From a virus (Duplodnaviria; Caudoviricetes), in IMG/VR virus record IMGVR_UViG_3300027808_000075, positions 1 through 37,219 of that record: a stretch of 37,219 bases of DNA; one strand, given 5' to 3'. The notes under the pieces are model-generated. The model was not told the origin of the DNA. It did no database searches and saw only the letters and a list, made by a program, of their open reading frames with translations. The first letter of the stretch is position 1. Each line of letters opens with the position of its first letter. Made by a program: the position numbers and the translations under genes. This document shows positions 8,868-29,132 of the stretch, piece after piece.

Positions 8868-9391
8868 ATCGCAATACGCTTCTTCGTCAACTTAAGCGTT
8901 GGCGGATAAAGCTCCGAGATTGGCAACGTGAACTCATCAGCAAAGGAAAGTTTTCCATCGCTGGGGTCCACGTTGCCTTTTGGTAGGAACACTGCACGCT
9001 CAATAAACTCACGGGCAGGCATCCAACCGATAATAGTAGCCAAAGTCATTTGTTGGTTACACCTAACGAAATAGTAAACATTACATTTGCTACACAGCTT
9101 TTCCTTATTGGCCTCGCTACCGTACACACGGGCAACATAATGGGGTTCGGGGACGGCTGCGGCTTTTGTGGTCTTGACATCAATAGTTATTTTGTTGGGC
9201 AGCATAATATCGTAAGCTGGATTAACAGCACCGACACGCTCCCCGCCAATGATCTCTTGCACAAGGATTTCACCCATCATGCCGATCTCATTGCCTGCTC
9301 CTCTTGTAATTGACTTATACAAGACCCCCATTTGTTTAGCCTCAAGACGCGCCTGTTTACGGTTCGCGTCCGAGGGTGTGATGACTTTCAT
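8864..9391 (-). CDS. PD-(D/E)XK-type endonuclease-like protein
   Basis: GMMGE...YD...IDVKT motif. Convergent with the primase (4-nt overlap). Confidence 0.6.
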   Translation of the reverse strand: MKVITPSDANRKQARLEAKQMGVLYKSITRGAGNEIGMMGEILVQEIIGGERVGAVNPAYDIMLPNKITIDVKTTKAAAVPEPHYVARVYGSEANKEKLCSKCNVYYFVRCNQQMTLATIIGWMPAREFIERAVFLPKGNVDPSDGKLSFADEFTLPISELYPPTLKLTKKRIAI

Positions 9392-10332
9392 TAGTAAAGT
9401 TGATACAGGCGACTTTGCGATCCAGTCCCATACGGATCGATATTGAGTCGCGGGATAGCTGCCCCCCTACTGGAGTTAGCTTCTTCCTCCATTAAAAGCA
9501 TACACTGGTTCCAATGGTATTGGGCTCGCTCAATGTCGGCGTTGTCCTCCATCAGGCGACCTAAGAGTCCTTGCTTGATTGCGCCGATATTGCCTACGTG
9601 CACAATTTCATTGTCGTTACGCAAAAGCTGGAATGCCCGCTTGCAAAGCACATGCACTACGGTCTGACCATCGGTAGCCCCATTGATTCTGAATCGGCGG
9701 TAACGGGTTACGCCGCTGTCTGGACCGATTGTTGCAATAGTGGTATTGCTCTCTAAAGCCGTTGTGCGGAGGTCAAAAGATCCGGTCAGGCTGTCATACC
9801 GAACACTCACAATGCTTGTAACGGGCGTATCAAAATTGATACGGTATGGGCCTGTAAGCAAAACCCCAGTATAAAATTGGTCTCCGTCGCTACCGACTAC
9901 TTCGATTACGCTGCCGTCGTCCGGTGAAAAGGTGTGGGCGATACTGGAACCGGATGCGGATACGATGTACAGGTCTTCTACAGGCGCGGCAAAAAGCTGT
10001 TTGGTGGGGGCGTAGCCAGCATCAATCAAACCCCATTGGGTGGTGGCGTTATTGGAAAGGTTGCCGATGCCTACGGATTTAAAGTCATGCCACAAGGACC
10101 GAACGGGAACAGGAAACCCGTCAACCATTGTATGCAATACCGAATCGGCGTCGTCTGGGAGGGTGACGCAGCCATCGACTACGGGCAAACTATACTGCAC
10201 AGTAAGATCACGATAGATCCCCATATTGTAAATACGGGAAAGCACTTGATTTAGGCTGGACTTAAAGTCGCCATCAGGCTCAACGTATGAGTTGAGCATC
10301 GGCGCAAGTTGGCTAAGGGTATAGGCGGGCAT
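9391..10332 (-). CDS. Probable head-tail adaptor / tail tubular A-like virion protein
   Basis: Helical N-terminus (LNQVLSRIY), TLP.D...V motif, beta-rich middle and helical C-terminus. Located in the structural block. Confidence 0.5.
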   Translation of the reverse strand: MPAYTLSQLAPMLNSYVEPDGDFKSSLNQVLSRIYNMGIYRDLTVQYSLPVVDGCVTLPDDADSVLHTMVDGFPVPVRSLWHDFKSVGIGNLSNNATTQWGLIDAGYAPTKQLFAAPVEDLYIVSASGSSIAHTFSPDDGSVIEVVGSDGDQFYTGVLLTGPYRINFDTPVTSIVSVRYDSLTGSFDLRTTALESNTTIATIGPDSGVTRYRRFRINGATDGQTVVHVLCKRAFQLLRNDNEIVHVGNIGAIKQGLLGRLMEDNADIERAQYHWNQCMLLMEEEANSSRGAAIPRLNIDPYGTGSQSRLYQLY

Positions 10333-10353: not shown

Positions 10354-10995
10354 TTACTGCGTTACGGGCAACTGGTTAAAACGACCCTCCACGGCACTTT
10401 GAAAACTCATGGGTTTTTCTTTTTTAATTACGGAAGCCATCTCTTCCATCCGCGTAGCCACACCAGACTTTGCTTCTTTCGCTTTTCGGTACTCCTCATT
10501 ATCCAAGACTTCGCGGGCGGCTCCGGCAAAGTCATTCTGGCTGAGTAATTTTAGAGCTTTAGGTGAGCCAGTAATGTCCCCCCTATACGCCCCAGAAACC
10601 AATTGCGCCTGAAGTTCTGGCGAGAAATCGCTAAACGTGTCGGGCCCAACGAGCCTCTTAGCCAACGTAATCTTCTCGGCAATGGCTTTAGTAGCCAAAG
10701 CTTTGGCCGCTTCCTCATTAATCTCTTTCCCAAAAAAGGGACTGGCTTTGAGATCAGCGTCGGTTCCTTTACCGATTAGGGTTCCGATCCCGACCGTCCA
10801 ATTTTTATTGGTGTCGAGGTACGGCTTCGATCTAAAACCTTCATGCCTACGGATCACCTCAAAGGCTTTATCAGCAAGACCTTTACTCTCATATTCAGGC
10901 ATCGGTTCTTCCTCATCTGGCTTAAAGCCGAATTGGTCAGCACGCAGTTCTTCTGGAGAAGGAACTCTTTTAGGCTTTACGAGGACGGGATTCAC
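10354..10995 (-). CDS. T4-type (GH24) lysozyme, possibly virion-associated
   Basis: HEGFRSKPYLDTNKNWTVGIG contains the E-x8-D-x5-T catalytic triad. Separate from the holin/amidase cassette. Confidence 0.88.
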   Translation of the reverse strand: MNPVLVKPKRVPSPEELRADQFGFKPDEEEPMPEYESKGLADKAFEVIRRHEGFRSKPYLDTNKNWTVGIGTLIGKGTDADLKASPFFGKEINEEAAKALATKAIAEKITLAKRLVGPDTFSDFSPELQAQLVSGAYRGDITGSPKALKLLSQNDFAGAAREVLDNEEYRKAKEAKSGVATRMEEMASVIKKEKPMSFQSAVEGRFNQLPVTQ

Positions 10996-11183: not shown

Positions 11184-11831
11184 CTACGAGTTCGGTTGTA
11201 GTTCGTAACTATACGTTCTCGTATGGGACGTTGTACCATTTGAACGCAGATTTGTCTCTGTCCAACTTAGTAAAGTTGGAGATGTGTCGAAAGAAAAAAC
11301 AATGCGGTTAGTTTCCCAAGTGGGCTTAAACCGCCATACAATATAAAATTTATCTCGGTGGTAGAAAGGTTGGATTTCTCTAATATTAGTCGCGATAGTA
11401 GTGGTTTCATTTGAGATAATAAAACTTTCGCTATTTTCGAACCGTGAGTCAATAAAATCTTGACCCGATAGTCTAAAGAAATTTATGCCTTTTGGACAGG
11501 TGGCTGAAAGCTGCCCCGCATAAAAGCTATTAAAATCTAGTGGCACGTCCTCTCCCGACCCGCCGCCACCTGCCTCAAAAACCTTGACGGATTTATATCG
11601 TTTTAGATTTGCCGAAATGTCGTGAGGAAGGATTCCTGTTCTTACACTTTTGCCTATAACTGTATTCCCGATGTGTGCCCAGTCACAATATTGTTCAAAT
11701 GTTATTTCTCTAAAGGCTTTAAAGTTGGCCTTAATGATATCAAACTCCTCATCGGTTATAGAAGAATACTGTTCGCCCTTTGGGGCTACGATTATAAAAC
11801 TAGGATCGCGTTTTTCTAAAGGGATCGACAT
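11184..11831 (-). CDS. Hypothetical protein
   Basis: 215-aa ORF in the structural block, noticeably AT-richer than its neighbours. Start codon uncertain. Confidence 0.65.
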   Translation of the reverse strand: MSIPLEKRDPSFIIVAPKGEQYSSITDEEFDIIKANFKAFREITFEQYCDWAHIGNTVIGKSVRTGILPHDISANLKRYKSVKVFEAGGGGSGEDVPLDFNSFYAGQLSATCPKGINFFRLSGQDFIDSRFENSESFIISNETTTIATNIREIQPFYHRDKFYIVWRFKPTWETNRIVFSFDTSPTLLSWTETNLRSNGTTSHTRTYSYELQPNS

Positions 11832-11839
11832 AAACTCTA

Positions 11840-12787
11840 TTACTCTTCAAACTTTTTAAATTTGGTCATTGCAGATAACGTGATGTACCCATATTCATTA
11901 TCTTTGATGCAATAAAAGTCTATAGGTATGCCGGAAACAAAATAATCGTCTTCTGTTATTGTTTCTCCCGACAGCGAATCTCTTATCTCTTCTGGGTAAC
12001 GGTCTTCTGGGTCTGGGTCAACACTGATTGTGTTTGAGTCTTGGACATACACGACCATCGCACTCTGCTTGTCCGCCGAAAAAAGCAACAACGGGGTTTG
12101 GCTCACCATCGATGACGCTCTTTCATTTCCTGCGCGTCGAGATATCTCGTTACTTTCGGGGTTCTTAACACCCTGCTCCGACTCGTTAGAACGAGCAGCC
12201 CGCGAGTCAGAGGCGGCTAGCTTACTGTCTGAAACAGAACTAGAATCGGACGAGGCAGGATCAACCTTACCATTCTCTACAGTAGAACTAGACTTGGCGT
12301 CTGTTTGATTGTAAGCCCCCCTTTGAATACTAGGCTCTTCAATTTGCGGTACCGGAGGGGGTGCGCCCGTCGGTGGTGGTGGTGGTGGTGCGCCCGTCGG
12401 TGGCGGTGCGTCTGTTTGATTGTAAGCCCCCCTTTGAATACTAGGCTCTTCAATTTGCGGTACCGGAGGGGGTGTGCCCTGCCAATTTTGTTTAGCCCAT
12501 TCATCTGATGCCTTAGACCCTGTAGATAATGAGTAATCCATGTTTCCCCCAGAAACCGTTGGGTATACCCCATTGATCGAGGTATTTTTAAGTAAATCAA
12601 ACATTACTTGTGACACATCGTCTTTAGATAATGAAGAAATATTGCCAGTAGTATTGGTGTTGCCACTGTTTATGTTTGGCTGTAGCCCTTGACCACTAGT
12701 GGGCATACTGCCGCCCGCTGATGATCCAATACCCCCAGACGCAGGGGCCGTATTATCCGGTGTTATGATTCCAAGAGTAGTTGCCAT
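11840..12787 (-). CDS. Low-complexity probable virion protein with an internal duplication
   Basis: 315 aa, Ser/Pro-rich. PPPVPQIEEPSIQRGAYNQTDA occurs twice. Confidence 0.7.
   Translation of the reverse strand: MATTLGIITPDNTAPASGGIGSSAGGSMPTSGQGLQPNINSGNTNTTGNISSLSKDDVSQVMFDLLKNTSINGVYPTVSGGNMDYSLSTGSKASDEWAKQNWQGTPPPVPQIEEPSIQRGAYNQTDAPPPTGAPPPPPPTGAPPPVPQIEEPSIQRGAYNQTDAKSSSTVENGKVDPASSDSSSVSDSKLAASDSRAARSNESEQGVKNPESNEISRRAGNERASSMVSQTPLLLFSADKQSAMVVYVQDSNTISVDPDPEDRYPEEIRDSLSGETITEDDYFVSGIPIDFYCIKDNEYGYITLSAMTKFKKFEE
12298..12474. repeat. In-frame direct repeat (~66 bp x2, period 111 bp)
   Basis: GCGTCTGTTTGATTGTAAGCCCCCCTTTGAATACTAGGCTCTTCAATTTGCGGTACCGGAGGGGGTG at ~12298 and ~12409. 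Confidence 0.9.
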
Positions 12788-12791
12788 AAAG

Positions 12792-15305
12792 TTAAACGTA
12801 AACTTCGATTAATTCTGTGACCCATATACCGTGTCTCCAGTGCTCGGACTGGCGAGCCACTTCGATCCAACCATCAAGCGTGGTTGGTGTTGTCGCGGGG
12901 ATAACCACTTTCTCTCCCGAAGGAAGAGACACGTTTATTTCTTCTCTTAAACACTTAGGGATGGATAAAGTAAAAAAGCTAGTGCTTGTAGTTACTGATC
13001 GCGACCTATTCTCAGACTCAGATATAGATGTAGATTCGTTATTTGATTGCGTATCTGATTCTGACTCACCGTCATTAACTGAAGTGCTTTTACCTTTTGA
13101 GCTACTGATTGATTCGTTCTGCCCCTCTTGGGTCGAAGAGCCGCTCGATGAACTGGTTCCGCTCTGGGTCGAAGTGCCGCTCGATGTACTTGTTCCGCTC
13201 TGGGTCGAAGTGCCGCTCGATGTACTGGTTCCGCTCTGAGACGAAGTGCCGCTCGATGAACTGGTTCCGCTCTGAGACGAAGTGCCGCTCGATGTACTTG
13301 TTCCGCTCTGAGACGAAGTGCTGCTCGATGAACTGGTTCCGCTCTGAGTCTGAGTGCCGCTCGATGAACTTCTTGCAGAAGAACCATTGTTACCATCATT
13401 TGATGAGTTTTCTTTTCTGCTATCTACTGTTTCTTTTCTAGATACCTCTGGCGTACTGTTCCAGACGTACCCGCCGTCTCTATTTGTTTGGACCGAAGAT
13501 CGGGTTACCCCACTGCCATTCGAAGCAGACACACTGTAAGAATAGCCGCTCGATGAACTGGTTCCGCTCTGAGACGAAGTGCCGCTCGATGAACTGGTTC
13601 CGCTTTGGGACGAACTGCCGCTCGACGAACTGCTTCCGCTTTGGGACGAACTGCCGCTCGACGTACTGGTTCCCTGTTGGGTCGAACTGCCACTCGACGT
13701 ACTGGTTCCCTGTTGGGTCGAAGTGCCGCTCGATGTACTTGTTCCGCTCTGGGTCGAAGTGCCGCTCGATGTACTTGTTCCGCTCTGTTCTGAAGTGCCG
13801 CTGCTCTTTGACGTTCCTTTTGTTTCGCTTTCGGAAGTGCTTGTGGACCTAGAGGTGGACGAACTACTCGATATGCTCCTCGACGAGTTTACAGAGGAAC
13901 CCTTAGACGTACCACTATTACTAGACTCACTTATCGATGTGCTCTTTGAAGTGTACTCAATAACAGCTTGAAAAGCTTCTGAGGCCCATACAGTGCGGGT
14001 GTTTGCAGAATCAACATCGGGGGGTGGTCCGTGTGTGAATGATCGCGTTGTTCTGGATTTTAAGGGCCCATCAGGCACGCGCTTCCATGTGGGAACCGCT
14101 ACATACCGCTCTAAACCGATTACATCAATACTTAATAGAACTTCAGGTAAGTTTTCTCGGCGTAAGCCAAACCATACTTGTGGTGCTGGTAGTGATTGTA
14201 GATACGTCGTGCTACGAGTAGAGTGCCATTGATCTTTGGGTTGGATATCAACGGACCCAAAAGACCCATCAGCACCGTAATAAAGACCGCCACTTTCAGA
14301 GTTTGATGGGATTATGCTGGAAGAGAAAGCAAGAGGAACCCCATATCGACTGTCTATCTGCGCCCCGTAAATTGTAGGAAACAGAACATTACCATTAGCG
14401 TCTTTTGGTGCTTCGATGGTTACTTTAACGCTCTGCCCATTACCTAGAACCGAAACAGAACTATCAAGAATACCGTAGCCGGATTCAGTAGTTTCGCCGT
14501 CTTCTACAAGAGATTCTTTTCGGGTAGCTACGACGCCACCATAGTCATTCACAATAAGCTGCCCATTCGGTAAATTAACTGGGAGAACTAATTCGGCTCT
14601 TTTAGCCCTCTTAACCAGTTTAACACTTGGGTTAAGCTGGTCTTCGGTGACTGAAAGCTCATCGCTAGCTAGGGTTGGCGCGGATGCAAGGCCCTCCTCG
14701 ATGTATTCTACCGACACAGTAGGGAGAATACTACGGAACTTTTCCGGTACGACTTCCGGTTTTTGTGCTCCGTGGCTCAGCTTTAAATCTAAAAAGCTCT
14801 CCTCTACATAGTTACGTTCCTCGATAACATAAAGAGAATCCAGTTCCGGCTCGCTCTTGGCTTGCTTCTTGTCGAAGAACAAATAGTTAATGCCATCAAA
14901 TGTGCTCTCCGGCACTTCTGGCATTGGGGTCTTGAACGCAGGAAACAGCGGATCGAACTCAGACCTTAGAGTTAAATAGGTTCGTGTTACTACACGAAAC
15001 TCACGACCACCGACGTTACCAATAATGTTGCGGTAGCCAAAAGAAAAGTTGTACCTGTCTTGTTCTTCTCTGTCCGCTGCGTAGAAAAACTCAAAAATTC
15101 CGTCGCGTTCAATATCGACAGTCTTAACAAAGACAAGTTTATGGTAAGGCCACTTGGCGGAATCAGGATGTGGGGTTCCGTATGCAGGGATATCGGAGCG
15201 GCTGCAATCTTTTACCTGACTAAACAATACGTCGCCGCTATCGGGCGTTGGATAAATCCGACGATCTTGTCTAAAAGGAGCTTGGGGTAATTGGGAGACT
15301 GGCAT
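12792..15305 (-). CDS. 837-aa probable tail/ejection protein with a giant Ser/Thr-rich symmetric tract
   Basis: Globular-looking residues 1-451, Ser/Thr/Gly tract 452-776 and a short globular C-terminus. Located directly downstream of the fibre genes. Confidence 0.75.
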   Translation of the reverse strand: MPVSQLPQAPFRQDRRIYPTPDSGDVLFSQVKDCSRSDIPAYGTPHPDSAKWPYHKLVFVKTVDIERDGIFEFFYAADREEQDRYNFSFGYRNIIGNVGGREFRVVTRTYLTLRSEFDPLFPAFKTPMPEVPESTFDGINYLFFDKKQAKSEPELDSLYVIEERNYVEESFLDLKLSHGAQKPEVVPEKFRSILPTVSVEYIEEGLASAPTLASDELSVTEDQLNPSVKLVKRAKRAELVLPVNLPNGQLIVNDYGGVVATRKESLVEDGETTESGYGILDSSVSVLGNGQSVKVTIEAPKDANGNVLFPTIYGAQIDSRYGVPLAFSSSIIPSNSESGGLYYGADGSFGSVDIQPKDQWHSTRSTTYLQSLPAPQVWFGLRRENLPEVLLSIDVIGLERYVAVPTWKRVPDGPLKSRTTRSFTHGPPPDVDSANTRTVWASEAFQAVIEYTSKSTSISESSNSGTSKGSSVNSSRSISSSSSTSRSTSTSESETKGTSKSSGTSEQSGTSTSSGTSTQSGTSTSSGTSTQQGTSTSSGSSTQQGTSTSSGSSSQSGSSSSSGSSSQSGTSSSSGTSSQSGTSSSSGYSYSVSASNGSGVTRSSVQTNRDGGYVWNSTPEVSRKETVDSRKENSSNDGNNGSSARSSSSGTQTQSGTSSSSSTSSQSGTSTSSGTSSQSGTSSSSGTSSQSGTSTSSGTSTQSGTSTSSGTSTQSGTSSSSGSSTQEGQNESISSSKGKSTSVNDGESESDTQSNNESTSISESENRSRSVTTSTSFFTLSIPKCLREEINVSLPSGEKVVIPATTPTTLDGWIEVARQSEHWRHGIWVTELIEVYV
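13128..13372. repeat. 36-bp tandem repeat block (~6.5 units, SGTSTSSGTSTQ), C-terminal arm
   Basis: GAAGTGCCGCTCGATG(T/A)ACT(T/G)GTTCCGCTCTG(G/A)G(T/A)C units with no spacers. Confidence 0.95.
13546..13803. repeat. 36-bp tandem repeat block (~7 units), N-terminal arm
   Basis: Same unit as 13128-13372, separated from it by ~170 bp of unique coding sequence. Confidence 0.95.
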
Positions 15306-15306
15306 A

Positions 15307-17337
15307 TTACACTAGAGGAAACACACTAACATTCATTTGATCTACAGTTACTTCATCACCATTAACTACATTCTCAACAAACACCTCAATAAACTCGGTC
15401 GGTAGAAGTTCGATAATACATTGACTTGAGACGTGAGCTAATACATTAGCCGCCGAACCTGTTGCTTGGAGCTTCGATGAAGCTATTGGGATGGCATCTT
15501 TTGCAATAGAAAAAGAATATTCAGTCCCATTGGTTCCGTGAAAACTAAGGGACACACTCACATAAAACTTGCGGGTTGCTGTTCCTGTATATGTTAAACG
15601 ACCATTAGAATGCGAGAAATTAGACAGAAGACCCTCCGTAGTAGTTCCACTAACTTTTGTTGGGGTATCCACTGTTGCTATCGCAGTTTCAATAATGGTT
15701 GTGAGGTAAAGTTCACCATAAGCGGATTGACTAACCCCCGTCCCACCGTTAACAACGGGCAATACGCCTGAGACTCCCGATGTCAACGGCAAGCCCGTGC
15801 AGTTGGTGAGAATACTTCCGGCTGCAGGAATACCCAATACTGGAGTAAATAGGGTAGGAGAGGTTGAGAGCACGACTGATCCAGTGCCCGTTGAAGTCGT
15901 AACATTAGTACCACCGTTCGCGACAGGCAAGACACCACTAGCATCGGCTAGCGAAACGCCTGACGTAGTGCCAGTACCGCCGTTTGCAAGAGGGAGAATT
16001 CCAGATACATGGGTTGTAAGACCTACTTTACCATAAGATGGAGCAACCGTAACACCCCCAGAAAGAAGCACATTTCCAGTAGCAGCAGACGGAAGCTTTG
16101 CCAGAGCTGTATCAGAGTTTGCGTATAGGATATCCCCAATAGAATAGAGTGACTGACCCGTACCACCACTGGCGGCACTTAGTGTCCCTCCGACATCGCT
16201 TAAAGTTATAGCCGACCAAGAGGGGGCACCTGCTCCGTTTGCTTTTAGGAACCCACTTGAGGCGGTGGGCAACATCGCCGTAACGCCAGCATTCGACTGA
16301 TATGGTATTGAACTAGCACCACCACCGATAAGATTAGTGGCGTTAGTAGCATTGGTGGAGTTAACAGCAGTAGTTGCTGCGTTTGTGATCTCGGTTTGTA
16401 GTGTCGAACTGAGATCCGTTTTGGCAATGCTAACCCAAGTTGGAGCCGCTGCACCGTTGGACTTAAGGAAAGTGCCCGAAGCACCTGCTAGCAATACAGT
16501 AGTGTCGGCTGCTGATTGATACGGGATGCTGCCTGTAGAGCCGCCAGCTAAGTGTGTAGCTTTGGCGGCGGTGCCTGTCGTGCTTTGGTTTAGAGTTGGA
16601 AAATCGGCAGCAATAGCAATAGACGGGACACCTGTTGCGGTTGTGTTCTTAACAATCCCCGTCGCGAGCGAAGACATCTCAACATTGTTAATCTTCGTAA
16701 CTTTAAGCACGCCGCTAGCATCGGTAACGTCTCCGGTATGGGTGATGTTCGAAACTTTAGCGGTATTGGTCGTGATCTCAGTGGACAACGCCGAACTCAA
16801 CATTGTCTTCTCAACAGCAGACCAAGATGGCGCGGCTGCGCCGTTTGACTTTAGCACGGTGCCCGATGTGCCGGAAGCCAACAAAGCCGTAGAATCATTT
16901 GCGGTTTGGTACGGGAGAGATCCCGTAGCACCACCAGCAATGTTCGTGGCTTTGGTAGCGGTTGTGGCTGTCAACGCATTGCCTGTCGTGCTTTGGTTAA
17001 GGGTGGGGAAGTCAGAAGCAATAGCAATAGACGGGGCACCTGTTCCGGTCGTGTTCTTAACAACGCCCGTTGCAAGGGAGGACATCTGGACATTGTTAAT
17101 CTTCGTAACTGTGAGCACGCCACTAGCATCAGTAACGTCTCCGGTATGGGTAACATTACCTACTTTAGCAGTATTAGCTGTGTGTTGATTAAAGATAGTG
17201 GGGCTCATCAACCCACTAACGCTCGATGTCGCTGTTGATATTGGATCGCTGCCACCAGTAATATGAGAAGCAGCATGAGGAGCCGGAATAGATACGCCAG
17301 TATCGGAGATTGTAAGGGTATAGGTATCGGATGGCAT
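15307..17337 (-). CDS. Tail fibre protein
   Basis: Gly/Ser/Thr/Ala-rich with LPVANGGTG repeats and GSLPYQ...G..LKSNG..AP.W modules. 136-aa internal duplication and a C-terminal beta-sandwich-like head. Confidence 0.8.
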   Translation of the reverse strand: MPSDTYTLTISDTGVSIPAPHAASHITGGSDPISTATSSVSGLMSPTIFNQHTANTAKVGNVTHTGDVTDASGVLTVTKINNVQMSSLATGVVKNTTGTGAPSIAIASDFPTLNQSTTGNALTATTATKATNIAGGATGSLPYQTANDSTALLASGTSGTVLKSNGAAAPSWSAVEKTMLSSALSTEITTNTAKVSNITHTGDVTDASGVLKVTKINNVEMSSLATGIVKNTTATGVPSIAIAADFPTLNQSTTGTAAKATHLAGGSTGSIPYQSAADTTVLLAGASGTFLKSNGAAAPTWVSIAKTDLSSTLQTEITNAATTAVNSTNATNATNLIGGGASSIPYQSNAGVTAMLPTASSGFLKANGAGAPSWSAITLSDVGGTLSAASGGTGQSLYSIGDILYANSDTALAKLPSAATGNVLLSGGVTVAPSYGKVGLTTHVSGILPLANGGTGTTSGVSLADASGVLPVANGGTNVTTSTGTGSVVLSTSPTLFTPVLGIPAAGSILTNCTGLPLTSGVSGVLPVVNGGTGVSQSAYGELYLTTIIETAIATVDTPTKVSGTTTEGLLSNFSHSNGRLTYTGTATRKFYVSVSLSFHGTNGTEYSFSIAKDAIPIASSKLQATGSAANVLAHVSSQCIIELLPTEFIEVFVENVVNGDEVTVDQMNVSVFPLV

Positions 17338-17342
17338 GGGAA

Positions 17343-17690
17343 TTAAGCGTCGTTGGTGGTTTGTGCGCGAGCAGTAAGCGATCCGTAAAGCAAACGCTCT
17401 CTTTTTGAATTACGATCCATGAATAGATCCCACTCGTAGATGCCTTTGCCCGCACGCAAAGTTTTGGTCTGGGCTTTCGTAATGATTATTTGAACCTGCC
17501 CGTCCGTTGCGGTTTCGTAGATCGCGGGAGTGAGGTCCAGCACTTCTTTCTTCGAAGCAACCTCACGAACATCAGCGTAAAATTCCGCATCCGTAAGGTC
17601 GACGGCAACGCCAGCCTGATTCTGAATCGTCAGAACGAAGCTGTAATCCGCTGCGCGGTCGAGAGTGATATCGTAATTTGCTGCGAGCAT
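17343..17690 (-). CDS. Fibre adaptor / baseplate-like small beta-sandwich protein (paralog of 20310..20654)
   Basis: YDITL.R..DY.F.L.I...G..VDL...T..L......Y.WD.F.......LLYG pattern shared with 20310..20654. Confidence 0.7.
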   Translation of the reverse strand: MLAANYDITLDRAADYSFVLTIQNQAGVAVDLTDAEFYADVREVASKKEVLDLTPAIYETATDGQVQIIITKAQTKTLRAGKGIYEWDLFMDRNSKRERLLYGSLTARAQTTNDA

Positions 17691-18077: not shown

Positions 18078-20309
18078 TTAACTGAGTTTTGTTGCGATGA
18101 TGTATGCTCTTTTTCTGGTAAGCGAAGCTGTGGCATCTGTTGTGGCTTGAGAATATTCGATAGAAAGTTCTGTTCCAGCAGTGATAATTTCAACAATGCC
18201 TGTTACGCGTCTACTGAATGTGACTCCAGAACCAGCAGACTTTGGTGATGCGGTGAAAGTATCGCTCGCAATGGGGTTACTTACATGAGCCGTATTGTCG
18301 TTACCATAATTTTCGTACGCAGTGATTCTAATGTTGTGACTTGATCTCAGCCCAATAGTGCATAACGCAACAGTGCCGTGGACGGATGCAACAAGAGAGT
18401 CAATCTGATATACTCCAATAGGCAGGACCACAGAGGCTACTTTTATTGGCGTAGTATCAGTGGAAGAAACTTGCGGGATTGAAACACCATTGTATAACGC
18501 ACCATACCTTGAATCCCCATCACCTTTCGTGATCAGACTGCTTGCGGGTGCTGCTGCAAACGTAGCAGTGGTTGCCGAACTGGTTGGGCGGGTGGTGGAG
18601 TTGAATATCTGCGCTCCTGTGAACGTCTGTGTGCCGCTTGATGGGTTGGTCAGCGCGACCGTGCCGGATGCGTTTGGAAACGCAATGGAGCGGTTGGCAG
18701 TGGGGCTGTGGGAGAGCGTGGTGGTGTTGCTGCCGTTGAAGAGGTTGAAGGTCGCGCGTGTCTGGATGTAGGCGTCGCTTCCGGTTGTGGAGATGTGCGC
18801 CAGATATCCGTTTGTGTAGATAGTAGAGGTGCTACCTGTGGTGTAAATGGGTGCGCCATCTCCGGCTGTATAAATAGTGGCACTAGTTCCATTTGTGAAG
18901 ATATGTCCATCCTGACCGTTTGTATGAATGGTCGCATCATAACCGTTTGTGTAGATGGTGGCATTATCTCCATGTGTGTAGATGTGGGCGTTAATTCCAT
19001 TTGTATGAAAGCTGGCGTAGACTCCGTTTGTGGAGATGCTGCCATTGTCTCCGTCTGTGTAGATGCGGGCGAATTCTCCGCTTGTGGAGATGGTGGCGTT
19101 TGCTCCGCTTGTGGTTATGTTAGCGTCGCTTCCGAGTGTGTAGATGTGGGCGTTGTCTCCTTCTGTGTAGATGTGGGCGTTGGCTCCGTAAGTGTAGATG
19201 TGGGCGTTGGCTCCCTGTGTGGAGATCTCGGCGTTGATTCCGACTGTGAAGATAGAAGCGGTTTCTCCGCCTGTGCTGATGTAGGCGTTTGCTCCGCTTG
19301 TGGCTATGCTAGCGTTGTCTCCTGCTGTGGAGATGGCGGCGTAGGTTCCTGCTGTGTAGATGCTGCCGTAGGCTCCGCTTGTGGAGATGCTGGCGTTGTC
19401 TCCTTCTGTGGAGATGGTTGCGTTTGATCCGCTTGTAAAGATATTTGCGTTGCTCCCGCTTGTGGAGATTCCGGCACGGACTCCGGTTGTGGTGATGCTG
19501 GCGTCGGTTCCGCTTGTGGAGATGGTGGAGTTGGCAATGATAGCTTCAAATGCAACACCGCCCTCCGCGTTGAACTCAACCAGCTTGCCAGCATCCGCTG
19601 CTCCGTTGCCTCCGGTGCTGGACTGAGTAGCTTGCTCTACCCAAACGGCAGCATCCGCTGAACCGTCAGTACAAGCATAGGCGGTGCTATCGTCTAAGAC
19701 CCAAAGCGATCCAACAACAAATCCTTTTGTGCTGTCGTCAAAAGCCGTTGGTGCAATGTTCCGGCAACGGTCAACGCGGCGAATGGTAAAGCCGTCCTGC
19801 TCCATTGTGTATAGGCGACCCGCATCCCACTTGAGTTCGTAGTCAACCGAACACTTGAGCGCAATGCCGCCGTTGCCGCCTAAGCCAGCGTCCGTCGTGC
19901 CCTTCTTGAGCTTGGAGCCGTTGTCGAAGGTGAGCGAGTCACCTGAAAGGTGCGCCGAATTGGTCGTGATCGTTTCAGCGTGGAAGCCATTAGGCTCGAC
20001 ATACGCGTATAAGCCAGTGTTTACGCCGTCTTCTTTTTGCTGAACTCCGAAACCCCAGCCGCCGACCTCTGAGTCTGTGCTGAAATCGTTGATATCAGGA
20101 GTTACATCGAGCGTGATAATGGCATCAGTATCCATTGCGCCGCCAGCGAGTGGTAATAAGCTATCACCATCTCCCACTGGTCCTTCCGGTCCGGCTGGTC
20201 CAGTTGGTCCAGTTGGTCCGGCTGGTCCGGCTGGTCCAGTTGGTCCGCTCAACGAAAGCGTCAAAGTACTGCCGTTAACTACACTGAGATTGTATTCTGA
20301 ATTAGCCAT
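18078..20309 (-). CDS. Tail fibre/spike with a collagen-like stretch and 11-aa repeats
   Basis: (GPx)8 near the N-terminus, PT..DD...G..VGS.W module, and more than 20 copies of A.I.T.G.NA. Confidence 0.8.
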   Translation of the reverse strand: MANSEYNLSVVNGSTLTLSLSGPTGPAGPAGPTGPTGPAGPEGPVGDGDSLLPLAGGAMDTDAIITLDVTPDINDFSTDSEVGGWGFGVQQKEDGVNTGLYAYVEPNGFHAETITTNSAHLSGDSLTFDNGSKLKKGTTDAGLGGNGGIALKCSVDYELKWDAGRLYTMEQDGFTIRRVDRCRNIAPTAFDDSTKGFVVGSLWVLDDSTAYACTDGSADAAVWVEQATQSSTGGNGAADAGKLVEFNAEGGVAFEAIIANSTISTSGTDASITTTGVRAGISTSGSNANIFTSGSNATISTEGDNASISTSGAYGSIYTAGTYAAISTAGDNASIATSGANAYISTGGETASIFTVGINAEISTQGANAHIYTYGANAHIYTEGDNAHIYTLGSDANITTSGANATISTSGEFARIYTDGDNGSISTNGVYASFHTNGINAHIYTHGDNATIYTNGYDATIHTNGQDGHIFTNGTSATIYTAGDGAPIYTTGSTSTIYTNGYLAHISTTGSDAYIQTRATFNLFNGSNTTTLSHSPTANRSIAFPNASGTVALTNPSSGTQTFTGAQIFNSTTRPTSSATTATFAAAPASSLITKGDGDSRYGALYNGVSIPQVSSTDTTPIKVASVVLPIGVYQIDSLVASVHGTVALCTIGLRSSHNIRITAYENYGNDNTAHVSNPIASDTFTASPKSAGSGVTFSRRVTGIVEIITAGTELSIEYSQATTDATASLTRKRAYIIATKLS
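18780..19530. repeat. 33-bp degenerate coding tandem repeat (~23 units)
   Basis: Recurring GTGGAGATG/GTGTAGATG...GCGTTG.CTCC every 33 nt, encoding A-x-I-x-T-x-G-x-x. Confidence 0.85.
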
Positions 20310-20699: not shown

Positions 20700-21266
20700 T
20701 TATTGTGCAACTAGCCAATTAACAAGGCCATTGGCATAAGCGCGGGCCAGTTCCTCACGATGAGCGGAGAAGAAGGCGGTGTCCTTTGCGTTGCTCCCGA
20801 AGAACGGCTCGCAAATGAGTGCGGGACAGTGGCTCTTACGCAGGAATAAACCGCCTCGGTCGGCAGCGTTGATTGATTTAAGTCCCCTATTTCTCTGTTC
20901 GGGAAAGGCTTTTGCAAAGCTTGTGCTTACTTTGCTGGCTAGGGTCAACCCTCTAGGGCTACAGAACCAGTGCAGGAACTCATAGCCTGTTGCCATCGGG
21001 CCCGCAGAATTGAAGTGCAGTTCGATAGCGGCATCGACTTTGAGTTCTTTCAGCCTTTTAGCGAGCCAGAGCATTGCGGAACTGTAGCTCTGGCCTTCGT
21101 AGCGATCCACAAGAACGGTCAAGTGACCCGATTCTTGGATCAGTTCGCAGACGCGCTGAGCAAGAGGCTGGTTAAAAGCCCACTCAGAAACGCCCTCGCT
21201 GTTCACTGCGCCTTTATCTCCGGCGCGGCTATGACCGACGCAAATAGCTACTAGTTTTTTTGTCAC
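20700..21266 (-). CDS. Endolysin, N-acetylmuramoyl-L-alanine amidase (Amidase_3)
   Basis: Zn-binding/catalytic motifs VGH...GA...SE, IELHFN and PALICEPFF. Confidence 0.9.
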   Translation of the reverse strand: MTKKLVAICVGHSRAGDKGAVNSEGVSEWAFNQPLAQRVCELIQESGHLTVLVDRYEGQSYSSAMLWLAKRLKELKVDAAIELHFNSAGPMATGYEFLHWFCSPRGLTLASKVSTSFAKAFPEQRNRGLKSINAADRGGLFLRKSHCPALICEPFFGSNAKDTAFFSAHREELARAYANGLVNWLVAQ

Positions 21267-21798: not shown

Positions 21799-22119
21799 TT
21801 ATCGACGCTTCATCGAACGCTCGATTGCGACCATAAAGGAATTACCTTTAGGGGTGTCTTCCTCTTCTTCCTGTCCGTGCATCTCGCACTTGCCTTTGCC
21901 GCCGCACTTGTCGCACTTACCCTCACCACCCTCATACTCCTCGTCTTCACCCTCTTCCTCGCCCTCATGTTCGGGCATGGCGACGGGCTGTCCACCCAAC
22001 TCCAGTGGCATGAGCTTACCACCCATGACGACAAACATACCACTCAATTTGAACGGTTTAGTGTTGCCGTCTTGTGGTACTTCAAGACCTTCAGGGATTG
22101 GGATGTGCATTGATTTCAT
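21799..22119 (-). CDS. Small acidic protein with a CxxCxGxGxC knuckle (paralog of 22279..22542)
   Basis: IPIPEGLEVP N-terminus, Glu-rich linker, CDKCGGKGKC and C-terminal SFMVAIERSM. Confidence 0.75.
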   Translation of the reverse strand: MKSMHIPIPEGLEVPQDGNTKPFKLSGMFVVMGGKLMPLELGGQPVAMPEHEGEEEGEDEEYEGGEGKCDKCGGKGKCEMHGQEEEEDTPKGNSFMVAIERSMKRR

Positions 22120-22278: not shown

Positions 22279-22542
22279 TTACATTTTTGGCTTCTTCATT
22301 GCCATCTCCACTGCGCTAGCAAAGGAGTTCGGCCCTTCGGGCATTTCCTCTTCAGGCATTTCCTCTTCAGGCATTTCCTCTTCAGGCATTTCCTCTTCAG
22401 GTGCCTCAATATCAGGAAAGGCAATGCCACCAACCGCAAGCGGGTAAAGCTGCCCGCCATCAACGGCATACGTAGTGACAAGATCGAAGGTCTCGCCTTC
22501 AGGGATCTCAAGTCCTTCGGGAATAGGTAGGTAAGCAGGCAT
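22279..22542 (-). CDS. Small acidic protein with EEEMP repeats
   Basis: LPIPEGLEIP N-terminus, 15-bp repeat x4 (~22340-22400) and C-terminal SFASAVEMAM. Confidence 0.75.
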   Translation of the reverse strand: MPAYLPIPEGLEIPEGETFDLVTTYAVDGGQLYPLAVGGIAFPDIEAPEEEMPEEEMPEEEMPEEEMPEGPNSFASAVEMAMKKPKM

Positions 22543-22726: not shown

Positions 22727-23485
22727 TTACTTTTTCGTTGTGCGATAAATCTTAAGCGCAAATTGGTTTGGGGTCAAGGCTTCCGATCCTTCTTGGCCCA
22801 TAAGGGAAGTAATTGATGCCATCTTCTTCTTATCCGCACTGGATTTAGGATCAAAGGTAGAGCCGTGAGTCTTCGCAAAGAGCATAGCTGCACGATCCGC
22901 ATCTACTGCGGGTGCGGGTGTCTCGCCCAACCTAGGAGAGGGCGCACCAGTAACAGGACTGACACGCATATCAATAGGACCGCCTTGGGTAAGGTCTGGA
23001 GATGGTTGTTTTGCTGTGTCTAAAAACGGACGAGCGGGAGCTTCGCCCAACCTAGGAGAGGGCGCACCAGTAACAGGACTGACACGCATATCAATAGGAC
23101 CGCCTTGGGTAAGGTCTGGAGATGGTTGTTTTGCTGTGTCTAAAAACGGACGAGCGGGAGCTTCGCCCAACCTAGGAGAGGGCGCACCAGTAACAGGACT
23201 GACACGCATATCAATAGGACCGCCTTGGGTAAGGTCTGGTTGCATCCGCTGATTCACAGCGTCCATAAAGGTTGGCTCAACTGCTGGCGACCCCTTAGGA
23301 GAAGCAGAAGCAGAACTAATATCAGACAAGAGCTTCTTGTTTTTGGTAATGTCTTTGACAACCATCTCCGCATCAGGAGCACCCGTTTCTGGGTTGACAT
23401 TAGGGTTCTTACTAAGAAGAGCCATTAGCTCTTCTCTGCTACGTGTAGGAGAGGCAGACGGTTTTTCTACTCTAAGTTCAGCCAT
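22727..23485 (-). CDS. Probable internal/minor head protein with 40-aa tandem repeats
   Basis: PDLTQGGPIDMRVSPVTGAPSPRLGE three times. Downstream of the capsid gene. Confidence 0.7.
   Translation of the reverse strand: MAELRVEKPSASPTRSREELMALLSKNPNVNPETGAPDAEMVVKDITKNKKLLSDISSASASPKGSPAVEPTFMDAVNQRMQPDLTQGGPIDMRVSPVTGAPSPRLGEAPARPFLDTAKQPSPDLTQGGPIDMRVSPVTGAPSPRLGEAPARPFLDTAKQPSPDLTQGGPIDMRVSPVTGAPSPRLGETPAPAVDADRAAMLFAKTHGSTFDPKSSADKKKMASITSLMGQEGSEALTPNQFALKIYRTTKK
22924..23239. repeat. 120-bp perfect tandem repeat (~2.6 copies)
   Basis: Lines 22981-23100 and 23101-23220 are identical. Confidence 0.95.
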
Positions 23486-23840: not shown

Positions 23841-25127
23841 TTAGGCAGCAGGAGTGGTGCTGGTCCGCTTGAAGAGGAACACATAACCAAACTCGGTTTT
23901 GATCGGCTTCGTAGCGGAGGCGAGAACGCCACGGAAGAAACCAATCGTGCCATCTGGGTTGAGGTCAACCGAAGGAATGTTCTTCCAGTTGAACTTACCG
24001 CGATAGTTGACGGGATCGAAGGTCAGACCATTGGAACCGCTGATTGGCTCAGGGATCTGGCTTTCCATGACATCCATGTGGAGCACGTAAGCGGCTTCGT
24101 AGGTTGCGGTTTCGTACGAGGCATTAAGGGTGATAACACCAGCAGTAGCCGTATATGGTTGGACACGGGTGAGAGTGCCGTCGCCGTCGTCATCCGAGTG
24201 AGTGAAGCGAGGAGCAAGATCGTCGATCAAGTGGTAGAAACCACGGAAGGACTTCTCGATTCCCAATGGCGCAATCAGATCGCTGACCTTTGCATTGTTG
24301 TAGCGAACGTCGTCGCGGAATCCGGCTTCGGTTTGCAGCGCGTAGGATGCTTCCGACGAGCAGACAAGGGCGAAGACAGGACGAGCGTTTTCACGACCGT
24401 AGGCATTCGTGCCTGCGCCAGCGCGGACCAACTTGAAGTAGGCACTATCAAGAACCTTGTTACTGATGTTGGCGGTAGGGGCGACGACAGTGGAACCAGC
24501 GGTGGCGGTATTGCTGTAAGCGGTCGAGGTGGTCGAAGCGGATGCAAGACACACAACAAGATTGCCTGCAACCTTGTCATATTGATCGCGATAACGCTCT
24601 TCCCACGAATACTTCGTGGACTCCGTCATGGCATCCATGATGGCGCGAAGCTGTTCGGTGCGATAAGCAGCGAAGCGGAGATCCTCAACGTTGATCTTAG
24701 GCGACTCAACAGTGGCGCGTTCCAGCGAGTACTGTTTGAGTTGGCGACCGAAGGCAAGGAAGCTCTTACCAGTTCCAGCACCAATGTTGGTGTCTGGTGC
24801 TCCGACAAGGATCTGGTCAAGGGTGCTACCAGTAGCGAGGGTATCTTGTGGGTTTGTGCCAACACCAGTCCAGATCGAACTTCCGGCAAGCGTAGAGCCG
24901 TTAGCCTCAGTGGTCGGAAGCGCACGATCATAGATCAGCGTGCCGAGGGTGTAGCCCATTCCGTCAGGGAAGGAGGTTTGCTTGATGAGGTCCATCCACG
25001 GGGAGGTGTGGAGGGTACGACGGTAGATGTCTTGACCGATACGGTTAGCCTCTTGAGTGAGGATGGTATCGATTGCGGTGGTCGAATTGGTTGGATTCGA
25101 GAAAGTTTGTAGACCGTTTGAAGCCAT
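23841..25127 (-). CDS. Major capsid protein
   Basis: 428 aa, portal-scaffold-capsid order, long leader and downstream terminator. Sequence features (F.DGMG, S..I...DL, G..GF..G) consistent with HK97-fold capsids. Confidence 0.8.
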   Translation of the reverse strand: MASNGLQTFSNPTNSTTAIDTILTQEANRIGQDIYRRTLHTSPWMDLIKQTSFPDGMGYTLGTLIYDRALPTTEANGSTLAGSSIWTGVGTNPQDTLATGSTLDQILVGAPDTNIGAGTGKSFLAFGRQLKQYSLERATVESPKINVEDLRFAAYRTEQLRAIMDAMTESTKYSWEERYRDQYDKVAGNLVVCLASASTTSTAYSNTATAGSTVVAPTANISNKVLDSAYFKLVRAGAGTNAYGRENARPVFALVCSSEASYALQTEAGFRDDVRYNNAKVSDLIAPLGIEKSFRGFYHLIDDLAPRFTHSDDDGDGTLTRVQPYTATAGVITLNASYETATYEAAYVLHMDVMESQIPEPISGSNGLTFDPVNYRGKFNWKNIPSVDLNPDGTIGFFRGVLASATKPIKTEFGYVFLFKRTSTTPAA

Positions 25128-29095: not shown

Positions 29096-29103
29096 AAGGA
29101 AAA

Positions 29104-29132
29104 ACAATAGAGAGAGCTATCGCAAAAGTCAA
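29104..29132 (-). promoter_or_regulatory. Sigma70-type promoter for the portal, leaderless
   Basis: TTGACT-17 bp-TATTGT-8 nt-GTG(29095). Confidence 0.7.

What the first reader, a model, noticed from the sequence alone, without database searches (positions are those of the whole stretch)
12972..13955. Giant symmetric Ser/Thr beta-hairpin with matched repeat expansions: candidate self-measuring tail or DNA-ejection tube
Seen: in the 837-aa protein the polar tract runs from residue 452 to 776 (midpoint 614), and the turn-like RDGGYVW with the tract's only Trp sits at 609-615. Two blocks of the same 36-bp repeat (SGTSTSSGTSTQ) lie symmetrically about this centre, with outer edges ~339 and ~336 nt away and six full units each. 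Even-period Ser/Thr/Gly repeats fit extended beta strands. Known: phi29 gp11 lower collar and anthrax protective antigen build long beta-barrel tubes from one polar, Ser/Thr-rich hairpin per subunit. Inference: each subunit donates a ~160-residue-per-strand hairpin (about 54 nm of strand at 3.3-3.4 A per residue, less after tilt). Both arms must grow equally to stay in register, so repeat number would set tube length. No tape measure, tail tube or large T7-like ejection protein is recognisable in this otherwise complete-looking virion module.
Basis: partly seen in the sequence, partly recalled or inferred. Interest (0 to 1): 0.85.

Follow-up and report, generated by a model that had tools for sequence, protein, structure and literature searches.

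The report
Ser/Gly-lined hairpin tail extension with plug
A freshwater phage tail gene carries a 325-residue Ser/Thr/Gly stretch whose two halves lengthen together across relatives, in step with a spacer in the next gene, so it likely folds into one giant hairpin that builds a narrow, roughly 30-nm tail extension holding a length-matched plug.

Summary
Observation confirmed. The giant hairpin is strongly supported by sequence. The arms co-vary (r 0.96 over 8 lineages). One face of both arms is almost only Ser/Gly/Asn/Gln and 82-96% conserved, against 27-44% for the other face. Lys/Arg on one arm face Asp/Glu on the other. No structure prediction folded the arms.

(1) The window is a 66%-complete fragment; five near-complete relatives, one with a long hairpin, carry a 3,000-4,500-aa ejection-like gene, in the three mapped just past the window's last genes. 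(2) The inner face is unlike phi29 gp11's charged lumen, so a 12-mer tube is unlikely. (3) Two pairing registers four residues apart imply about 56 degrees of tilt and about 30 nm, not 54 nm.

New: the next gene has an anchor motif found in 15 of 15 long-hairpin loci and 0 of 38 short ones. Its disordered spacer scales with arm length (r 0.99, 7 lineages).

Best reading: a hexameric nozzle ending in a narrow 12-stranded barrel plugged by that protein (0.45). A trimeric needle (0.3) is the main rival.

The parts
12792..15305 (-). 837-aa tail protein (candidate nozzle/hub)
   Evidence: 258 homologues; 1379 clusters at E<=0.001; no Pfam or PHROG family
14796..15233 (-). Conserved N-terminal domain (res ~25-170); weak likeness to Dit/VgrG-hub ring barrels; likely docks on the adaptor (inferred)
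   Evidence: model of a short homologue, res 80-170 vs lambda tail-tip chain 8iyk_M Z 5.6 and 2p5z Z 5.2; below the tool's Z 8 trust level
14196..14783 (-). Three ~60-aa four-stranded repeats; number varies widely in the family (one member is 3330 aa)
13953..14195 (-). Hairpin base domain, first half (res 371-451)
   Evidence: alignments; AF2 strand 445-462
13506..13952 (-). Outgoing arm (res 452-600); Ser/Gly/Asn/Gln face alternating with Thr/charged face
13545..13802 (-). 36-bp repeat array in the outgoing arm
13419..13505 (-). Hairpin tip (res ~601-629) with the RDGGYVW turn; pairing centre at res 613.5-615.5
12978..13418 (-). Returning arm (res 630-776)
13132..13370 (-). 36-bp repeat array in the returning arm
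12795..12977 (-). Hairpin base domain, second half (res 777-837)
11840..12787 (-). Gene X (315 aa): anchor motif near res 55-100, disordered spacer, C-terminal beta domain from about res 230; candidate length-matched plug
11184..11831 (-). Gene Y (215 aa), highly variable; candidate tip/receptor-binding protein (inferred from position and variability only)
   Evidence: no family hit
9391..10332 (-). Candidate head-tail adaptor (313 aa)
   Evidence: Atlas feature hit 0.97 to a cluster with 24% SU10_adaptor members, a lead; conserved in relatives
15307..17337 (-). Tail-fibre-like gene directly upstream, preceded by an LtfC-like gene (17343-17690)
   Evidence: LtfC-like hits phrog_3304 and PF23926 below cut-off; fibre role inferred from sequence and position

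Best explanation
The 837-aa protein is likely the tail nozzle of a short-tailed phage, and its 325-residue Ser/Thr/Gly tract likely folds as one antiparallel beta-hairpin that would join those of neighbouring subunits (probably six) in a narrow barrel about 30 nm long, predicted to hold the next gene's product as a plug. Shown from sequence: matched arms, strict two-face alternation, a conserved small face, cross-arm charge pairing, and a spacer in gene X that scales with arm length. Inferred: (1) each strand has two partners four residues apart in register, giving about 56 degrees tilt and 1.8 A rise per residue. (2) A hexamer, because complete genomes show no other nozzle gene below an SU10-like adaptor. 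That gives 12 strands, radius about 15 A and a free bore near 23 A only if the lining is Ser/Gly, which would explain why Thr and charged residues are excluded. (3) X anchors at the base, runs through the bore and caps the tip, perhaps carrying Y. On receptor contact X would leave, then the ejection proteins and DNA would pass. The cassette would lengthen the tail's reach; it does not replace the ejection proteins.
For: Faces: in the window, 5 of 148 inner against 83 of 148 outer positions hold Thr, charged or bulky residues (p 1e-25); outside the repeats 5 of 70 against 46 of 70. Inner identity is 82-96% and outer 27-44% in four equal-length homologues. Four further homologues show the same split. 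Arms: r 0.996, slope 1.01 for 10 divergent proteins by tip motif; r 0.96, slope 0.79 for 8 lineages by a motif-free tip finder; 19 of 22 records have the tip at 45-54% of the tract. Charges: best-register score reached by 0, 1 and 0 of 1000 shuffles for P0004, P0003 and P0047. Pooled over 15 proteins, offsets -1/+1/+3 score 43/22/42, or 33/9/26 without P0004, against background -0.6+-3.6. Asn/Gln lies opposite Gly in 3 of 5 non-repetitive homologues (p<=0.002). AF2 pairs the base strands 445-462 and 765-782 and folds the same element as a confident hairpin in a short homologue (strands 475-500 and 505-532, pLDDT about 90). X: motif in 15 of 15 long and 0 of 38 short loci; spacer against arm r 0.99, slope 0.73, 6 of 5040 permutations; Y length, X total length and pre-hairpin length do not correlate. 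No other nozzle-sized unassigned gene in G001 or G006. G006 (long) and G002 (short) are 97% identical in portal, capsid and adaptor candidates and 85% in the giant protein. Hexameric nozzles under 12-mer adaptors: PMC9509320.
Against: AF2 monomer leaves 457-771 at pLDDT about 20; the Atlas model has pTM 0.16. The window's own charge peak is not significant alone (80 of 1000 shuffles). With one protein per clade the +3 register is weak (19/6/9), and P0009 and L047 show no clear peak. Single-arm repeat-unit differences exist: P0001, P0005, P0006, L004, L006, L008 and P0142 (92 vs 176); L037 lacks the tip. Oligomer number was not measured. A 23-A bore is below the 25-31 A reported for SU10 and 32 A for phi29, and it is uncharged where tail tubes are reported as negative (PMC9022992). 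No beta-propeller, the core of T7/P22/SU10 nozzles, appeared among the models' listed matches. The X correlation rests on 7 lineages; r falls to 0.90 without the two longest. Presence in virions is untested.
Confidence: 0.45

Rival explanations
1. Trimeric needle: three hairpins form a six-stranded barrel (radius about 8 A, bore about 8 A) on the tail axis, a His-free analogue of the T4 gp37 tip. It reaches the cell and is shed before DNA exit; X runs as one chain inside or along it.
For: All hairpin evidence applies equally. The high curvature of a 6-strand barrel best explains the lack of Thr inside (geometry; formula recalled). One X chain needs about 54 square A and the bore offers about 51. 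Podophage needles are generally trimers (PMC13730344; PMC9509320). The family is modular, with swapped C-termini.
Against: It leaves no nozzle gene in two complete genomes. No His-x-His motifs as in gp37/Stf; hhalign probability 0.4%. X spacers are rich in Lys, Arg and Glu, a tight fit for 8 A. The short form's four-stranded unit looks like the flat sheets of very wide pores (weak, generic matches).
Confidence: 0.3
2. phi29 gp11-like 12-mer: a 24-stranded DNA tube of about 32 A bore and about 42 nm.
For: Same topology of one long polar hairpin per subunit with a small tip loop (PMC6542822). An X slope of 0.73 fits a taut chain at 37 degrees tilt (3.6 A per residue). The tip resembles gp11 res 174-190 by eye.
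Against: gp11 is charged on both faces. A wide bore gives no reason for a Ser/Gly-only face. A four-residue register step would give a 53-A bore with 24 strands. gp11's base is all-alpha, this one all-beta. hhalign probability 0.3%.
Confidence: 0.1
3. The tract is a disordered or glycosylated low-complexity linker whose symmetry comes from repeat turnover.
For: AF2 pLDDT about 20; repeat-unit indels on one arm; a DUF3431 gene follows the hairpin gene in 5 long-hairpin loci.
Against: Alternate-residue conservation, cross-arm charge pairing, symmetry in lineages without repeats or with different units on the two arms, and the matched X spacer.
Confidence: 0.05
4. Membrane-inserting pore stem like anthrax protective antigen (features recalled, not fetched).
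For: Generic fold matches of the short homologue's hairpins to MACPF/gasdermin pore sheets (E>=1e-3, rmsd 9-25 A).
Against: No two-strand hydrophobic belt near the tip; the outer face is 3-20% hydrophobic and scattered.
Confidence: 0.04

Closest known systems
phi29 gp11 lower collar (also P68, Andhra)
   Same: One long polar antiparallel hairpin per subunit closing a multi-subunit barrel; small turn at the distal tip (PMC6542822 passages; PMC13730344 section 10).
   Different: gp11: 156 residues, 12-mer, charged wall, all-alpha base. Here: 259-740 residues, variable by tandem repeats, uncharged Ser/Gly/Asn/Gln face, all-beta modular base, matched partner protein; no detectable homology.
T4 gp37 / lambda Stf needle domain
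   Same: Long Ser/Gly/Thr-rich hairpins forming a six-stranded antiparallel needle (PMC7291167 passage); Gly spacing partly alike.
   Different: His-x-His motifs and bulky core residues there, none here; much shorter; fibre tip rather than tail axis; no homology.
SU10 (Kuravirus) nozzle gp17 and needle gp18; T7 gp12, P22 hub
   Same: Short-tailed architecture with an SU10-like adaptor lead, ejection-like genes, and repeated small beta domains that lengthen the tail (PMC9509320).
   Different: No beta-propeller seen; elongation by a fixed hairpin barrel, not by refolding; the plug candidate is a disordered spacer protein, not a coiled coil.
Tape-measure protein inside a siphophage tail tube
   Same: A partner whose length scales with tube length and would leave before the DNA.
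   Different: Here the barrel sets its own length and X must match it; X's spacer is short and Pro/charge-rich rather than a long helix.

Membership tests
phi29 gp11 lower collar | Sequence or profile homology | tested here: not met
   hhalign probability 0.3%, E 0.17
phi29 gp11 lower collar | One long antiparallel hairpin per subunit | tested here: met
   sequence evidence only; not reproduced by folding
phi29 gp11 lower collar | Charged (Arg/Lys-rich) inner wall | tested here: not met
   11 charged of 1434 inner positions against 21-46% on both gp11 parities
phi29 gp11 lower collar | All-alpha collar domain | tested here: not met
   base is beta in both models
phi29 gp11 lower collar | 12-mer, 24-stranded barrel | not testable with these tools
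   complex tool limited to 4 copies and 1000 residues
T4 gp37/Stf needle | His-x-His metal sites | tested here: not met
   no His in res 452-776; 7 motifs in the gp37 tip
T4 gp37/Stf needle | Homology to the gp37 tip | tested here: not met
   hhalign probability 0.4%
T4 gp37/Stf needle | Trimeric six-stranded barrel | tested here: inconclusive
   geometry allows it; subunit number not determined
T7 gp12/P22/SU10 nozzle | Seven-bladed beta-propeller core | tested here: inconclusive
   strand pattern and listed matches point to small four-stranded units; domains were not folded alone
T7 gp12/P22/SU10 nozzle | Sits below the adaptor in a phage with ejection proteins | tested here: inconclusive
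   adaptor lead; giant gene present but with no family hit; location in the virion untested
Aerolysin/protective-antigen-type pore stem | Alternating hydrophobic belt on both strands near the tip | tested here: not met
   ladder; the defining feature is recalled
Tape-measure protein (gene X) | Length scales with tube length | tested here: met
   r 0.99, 7 lineages
Tape-measure protein (gene X) | Determines tube length; long alpha-helical protein | not tested
   spacers look disordered, 3-16% Pro; causality needs deletions

The most novel reading that the evidence does not exclude
A widespread, unnamed phage family builds its whole tail conduit from one polyprotein. Six chains stack four-stranded repeats into rings and end in a 12-stranded, highly tilted barrel lined only with Ser/Gly, the narrowest protein tube able to pass double-stranded DNA. 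Length is tuned from about 24 to 65 nm by paired tandem-repeat expansion in two arms and in a threaded plug protein, and the unit is swapped between near-identical phages as a reach cassette.
Probability: 0.3. Interest if true: 0.9.

Novelty: new variant of a known kind. Interest (0 to 1): 0.74.

Why it matters
Known hairpin-barrel tails (phi29 type) have fixed, short, charged walls. This one would be two to four times longer per strand, uncharged, and length-tuned by repeats that must change together in three places (two arms and the plug spacer). That gives a direct test of how a short-tailed phage extends its reach without a classical tape measure, and of the smallest bore that DNA can pass. 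It would also be a natural, length-programmable protein nanotube. The family is large (1379 clusters at 50% identity) and has no match among 50,697 deposited phage records.

Tried and rejected
Three-copy complex prediction of res 449-781: no verdict, score 0.00, controls not folded; not used as evidence. Pfam and PHROGs gave no family for the protein. PDB sequence searches gave only an Ig-like C-terminal extra and low-complexity matches. Foldseek PDB gave nothing at E<=0.001; BFVD gave one uncharacterised phage protein; VIA gave no Z>=8 for either model. No gp37 or gp11 chain was among the listed rows, which does not exclude them. The Atlas gave no usable hit for the protein. No match in deposited phages or prokaryote genomes, so the host is unknown. 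A second homologue search with res 352-452 added no new proteins. My recalled idea that the 12-residue unit equals the gp37/Stf unit was only partly right: those repeat at 14 and 9 residues. Covariation on 192 short-form domains recovered three hairpin-like registers and a weaker strand 1-strand 4 signal (z 4.5), but face parities were inconsistent, so it was not used to fix the oligomer. Public-run contigs break inside both arrays: repeat counts in records are unreliable, and real single-arm variants cannot be told from collapses. DUF3431 papers gave only listings on fungi. Earlier-findings look-ups were empty.

Full report
OBSERVATION. The ORF 15305..12792 (-) encodes 837 aa. The tract T452-S776, the central RDGGYVW with the only Trp, and six 12-aa units on each side are as described.

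CONTEXT. The window is a linear, 66%-complete virus record. It holds replication genes, two lysis enzymes and fibre genes. Portal (26843-29107) and capsid (23841-25127) are my assignment from size, order and conservation, with no family hit. The 313-aa gene has an SU10-adaptor lead. Relatives are about 60 kb. In G001, G002 and G006 a giant ORF (3916; 3045+1206; 4532 aa), two mid-sized ORFs and the terminase gene follow homologues of the window's last genes. Three of 4 further records searched match the giant; the miss is 80% complete. Its ejection role is inferred from size and position, since it has no family hit.

FAMILY. There are 258 homologues of res 1-451 (120 listed and used) and 1379 clusters by profile (150 listed). 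The layout is an N-domain, a variable number of ~60-aa repeats and a C-terminal domain. Of 146 sequences, 96 had the short C-terminal type, 21 the long and 29 other. AF2 on a 623-aa short member (77 sequences, pLDDT 81.6) gives three hairpins in the C-terminal domain. By motif alignment (by eye, as hhalign aligned only res 1-301) the window's tract is the second hairpin enlarged, with the first and third reduced to turns.

IS IT A HAIRPIN? Four lines of evidence say yes. (1) Arms co-vary. For 10 divergent proteins r is 0.996 and slope 1.01 (several share one length). With a motif-free tip finder, 19 of 22 records have the tip at 45-54% of the tract and r is 0.79 over all 22. For 10 lineage representatives r is 0.994, but for two lineages I chose the most symmetric sibling; without those two, r is 0.96 and slope 0.79. 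The exceptions differ by roughly whole repeat units. Each has a symmetric sibling or relative (L005, L007, P0007, L047), and assemblies break in the arrays, so collapse is likely but not proven. L037 lacks the tip and was not counted. (2) Two faces. Pooled over 10 proteins the inner face is S781 G340 Q111 N105 T62 of 1434 with 11 charged; the outer has 420 Thr and 215 charged. Inner identity is 82-96%, outer 27-44%. (3) Cross-arm charges peak at one register, significant in 3 of 4 proteins tested and not in the window alone (p 0.08). (4) AF2 pairs the base strands. Against: the arms themselves are not folded by AF2 (10 sequences, pLDDT about 20). My confidence in the hairpin is about 0.9.

WHAT KIND OF BARREL? 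Pooled charge scores have two peaks, at offsets -1 and +3 (43 and 42, with 22 between; 33/9/26 without P0004; 19/6/9 with one protein per clade). I read them as intra- and inter-subunit registers, with moderate confidence. With the standard barrel formula (recalled; a 3.3, b 4.4 A) a four-residue step gives 56 degrees tilt, 1.83 A per residue and 29 nm for 160 residues. The free bore with Ser would be 8 A for 6 strands, 23 A for 12 and 53 A for 24. phi29 gp11 is charged on both parities in the ranges I chose (95-150, 165-225), and its wall is Arg/Lys-rich with a 32-A bore (PMC6542822, passages). The gp37/Stf needles use His pairs (PMC7291167, one passage). Neither is homologous. A 12-mer leaves the small face unexplained, so a trimer and a hexamer remain. 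I favour the hexamer: neither complete genome shows another nozzle gene, the N-domain weakly resembles six-fold ring folds (Z about 5.5), and nozzles under adaptors are hexamers in SU10 and A1002 (PMC9509320 passages and section 12; PMC13730344 abstract and sections 9-10). This is inference, not measurement.

A MATCHED PARTNER. The next gene, X, has an N-terminal motif in 15 of 15 long-hairpin loci and 0 of 38 short ones. Three loci with little downstream DNA were dropped; the profile was built from 8 long loci, and L047, not among them, scored E 2e-8. The distance from this motif to X's C-terminal beta motif is 146, 161, 170, 174, 183, 262 and 308 aa for left arms of 135, 175, 173, 170, 190, 274 and 370 (r 0.99, slope 0.73+-0.05, 6 of 5040 permutations; r 0.90 without the two longest). 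Three control lengths do not correlate. L078 lacks the C-motif and L037 is cut, so both were left out. X stays short (226 aa) in L078 despite a 1693-aa partner, so it tracks the hairpin and not the repeats. X is identical in length in L004-6 and near-identical in L007/8, and fits the symmetric versions, which supports collapse in L004 and L008. A tight linear relation suggests confinement in the bore; an outside tether is not excluded.

CASSETTE. G006 (long) and G002 (short) are 97% identical in portal, capsid and adaptor candidates, yet differ in this gene, X and Y. The long form is thus an exchangeable distal module, likely altering reach or host surface access (inference). The best-matching runs are labelled freshwater metagenomes; the host is unknown.

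NOVELTY. The topology is known from gp11 and gp37. The scale, uncharged lining, paired repeat tuning and matched plug were not found in my searches (mostly listings, with passages read of PMC9022992 and 10.1101/2024.07.22.604663). The library lacks most subscription papers and I opened no supplements.

VERDICT. A real feature and a new variant of a known kind. Hairpin about 0.9; hexameric plugged nozzle 0.45; trimeric needle 0.3; phi29-like 12-mer 0.1. Interest 0.74.

Noticed in passing
L007:13105-13698, L008, L045:10113-10709, L046, L077:10753-11352: A DUF3431 gene (Pfam E 1e-12 to 1e-16) sits directly after the long-hairpin gene in 5 loci of 3 lineages and matched no other locus held. If it is a glycosyltransferase (recalled, unverified) it might modify the outward Thr/Ser face. 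Absent from the window.
   Followed up: partly
P0121 (3330 aa), P0130 (2571 aa), P0171 (2122 aa): Family members with dozens of ~60-aa four-stranded repeats; P0121 has a minimal hairpin. Repeat number may be a second way to set tail length (polyprotein tube or fibre).
   Followed up: partly
P0008, P0011, P0054 and 15 more: 18 of 146 sequences carry a second copy of the N-terminal domain, most with a different C-terminal domain.
   Followed up: no
window 13461-13505 vs phi29 gp11 res 174-190: The hairpin-tip turn resembles gp11's flipped-back tip loop by eye; it was hhalign's best local match but not significant (probability 0.3%).
   Followed up: partly
window 18948-19535: 27-bp (9-aa) repeat array of about 19 units in the 743-aa fibre gene, beta-solenoid-like.
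   Followed up: no
window 22923-23239: Perfect 120-bp repeat, 2.6 copies, in the Pro-rich 252-aa gene after the capsid gene.
   Followed up: no
window 21799-22119 and 22279-22542: Two small paralogous-looking acidic genes, one with a 15-bp repeat; relatives carry similar genes.
   Followed up: no
window 10354-10995 and 20700-21266: Two separate cell-wall hydrolases (lysozyme and Amidase_3) flank the tail genes.
   Followed up: no
L028:15669-18506 (G001): Terminase large subunit with an intein-like insertion (Pfam below cut-off).
   Followed up: no
L033:613-13399 (G002): The giant gene appears as 3045+1206 aa, against a single 4532-aa ORF in close relative G006.
   Followed up: no
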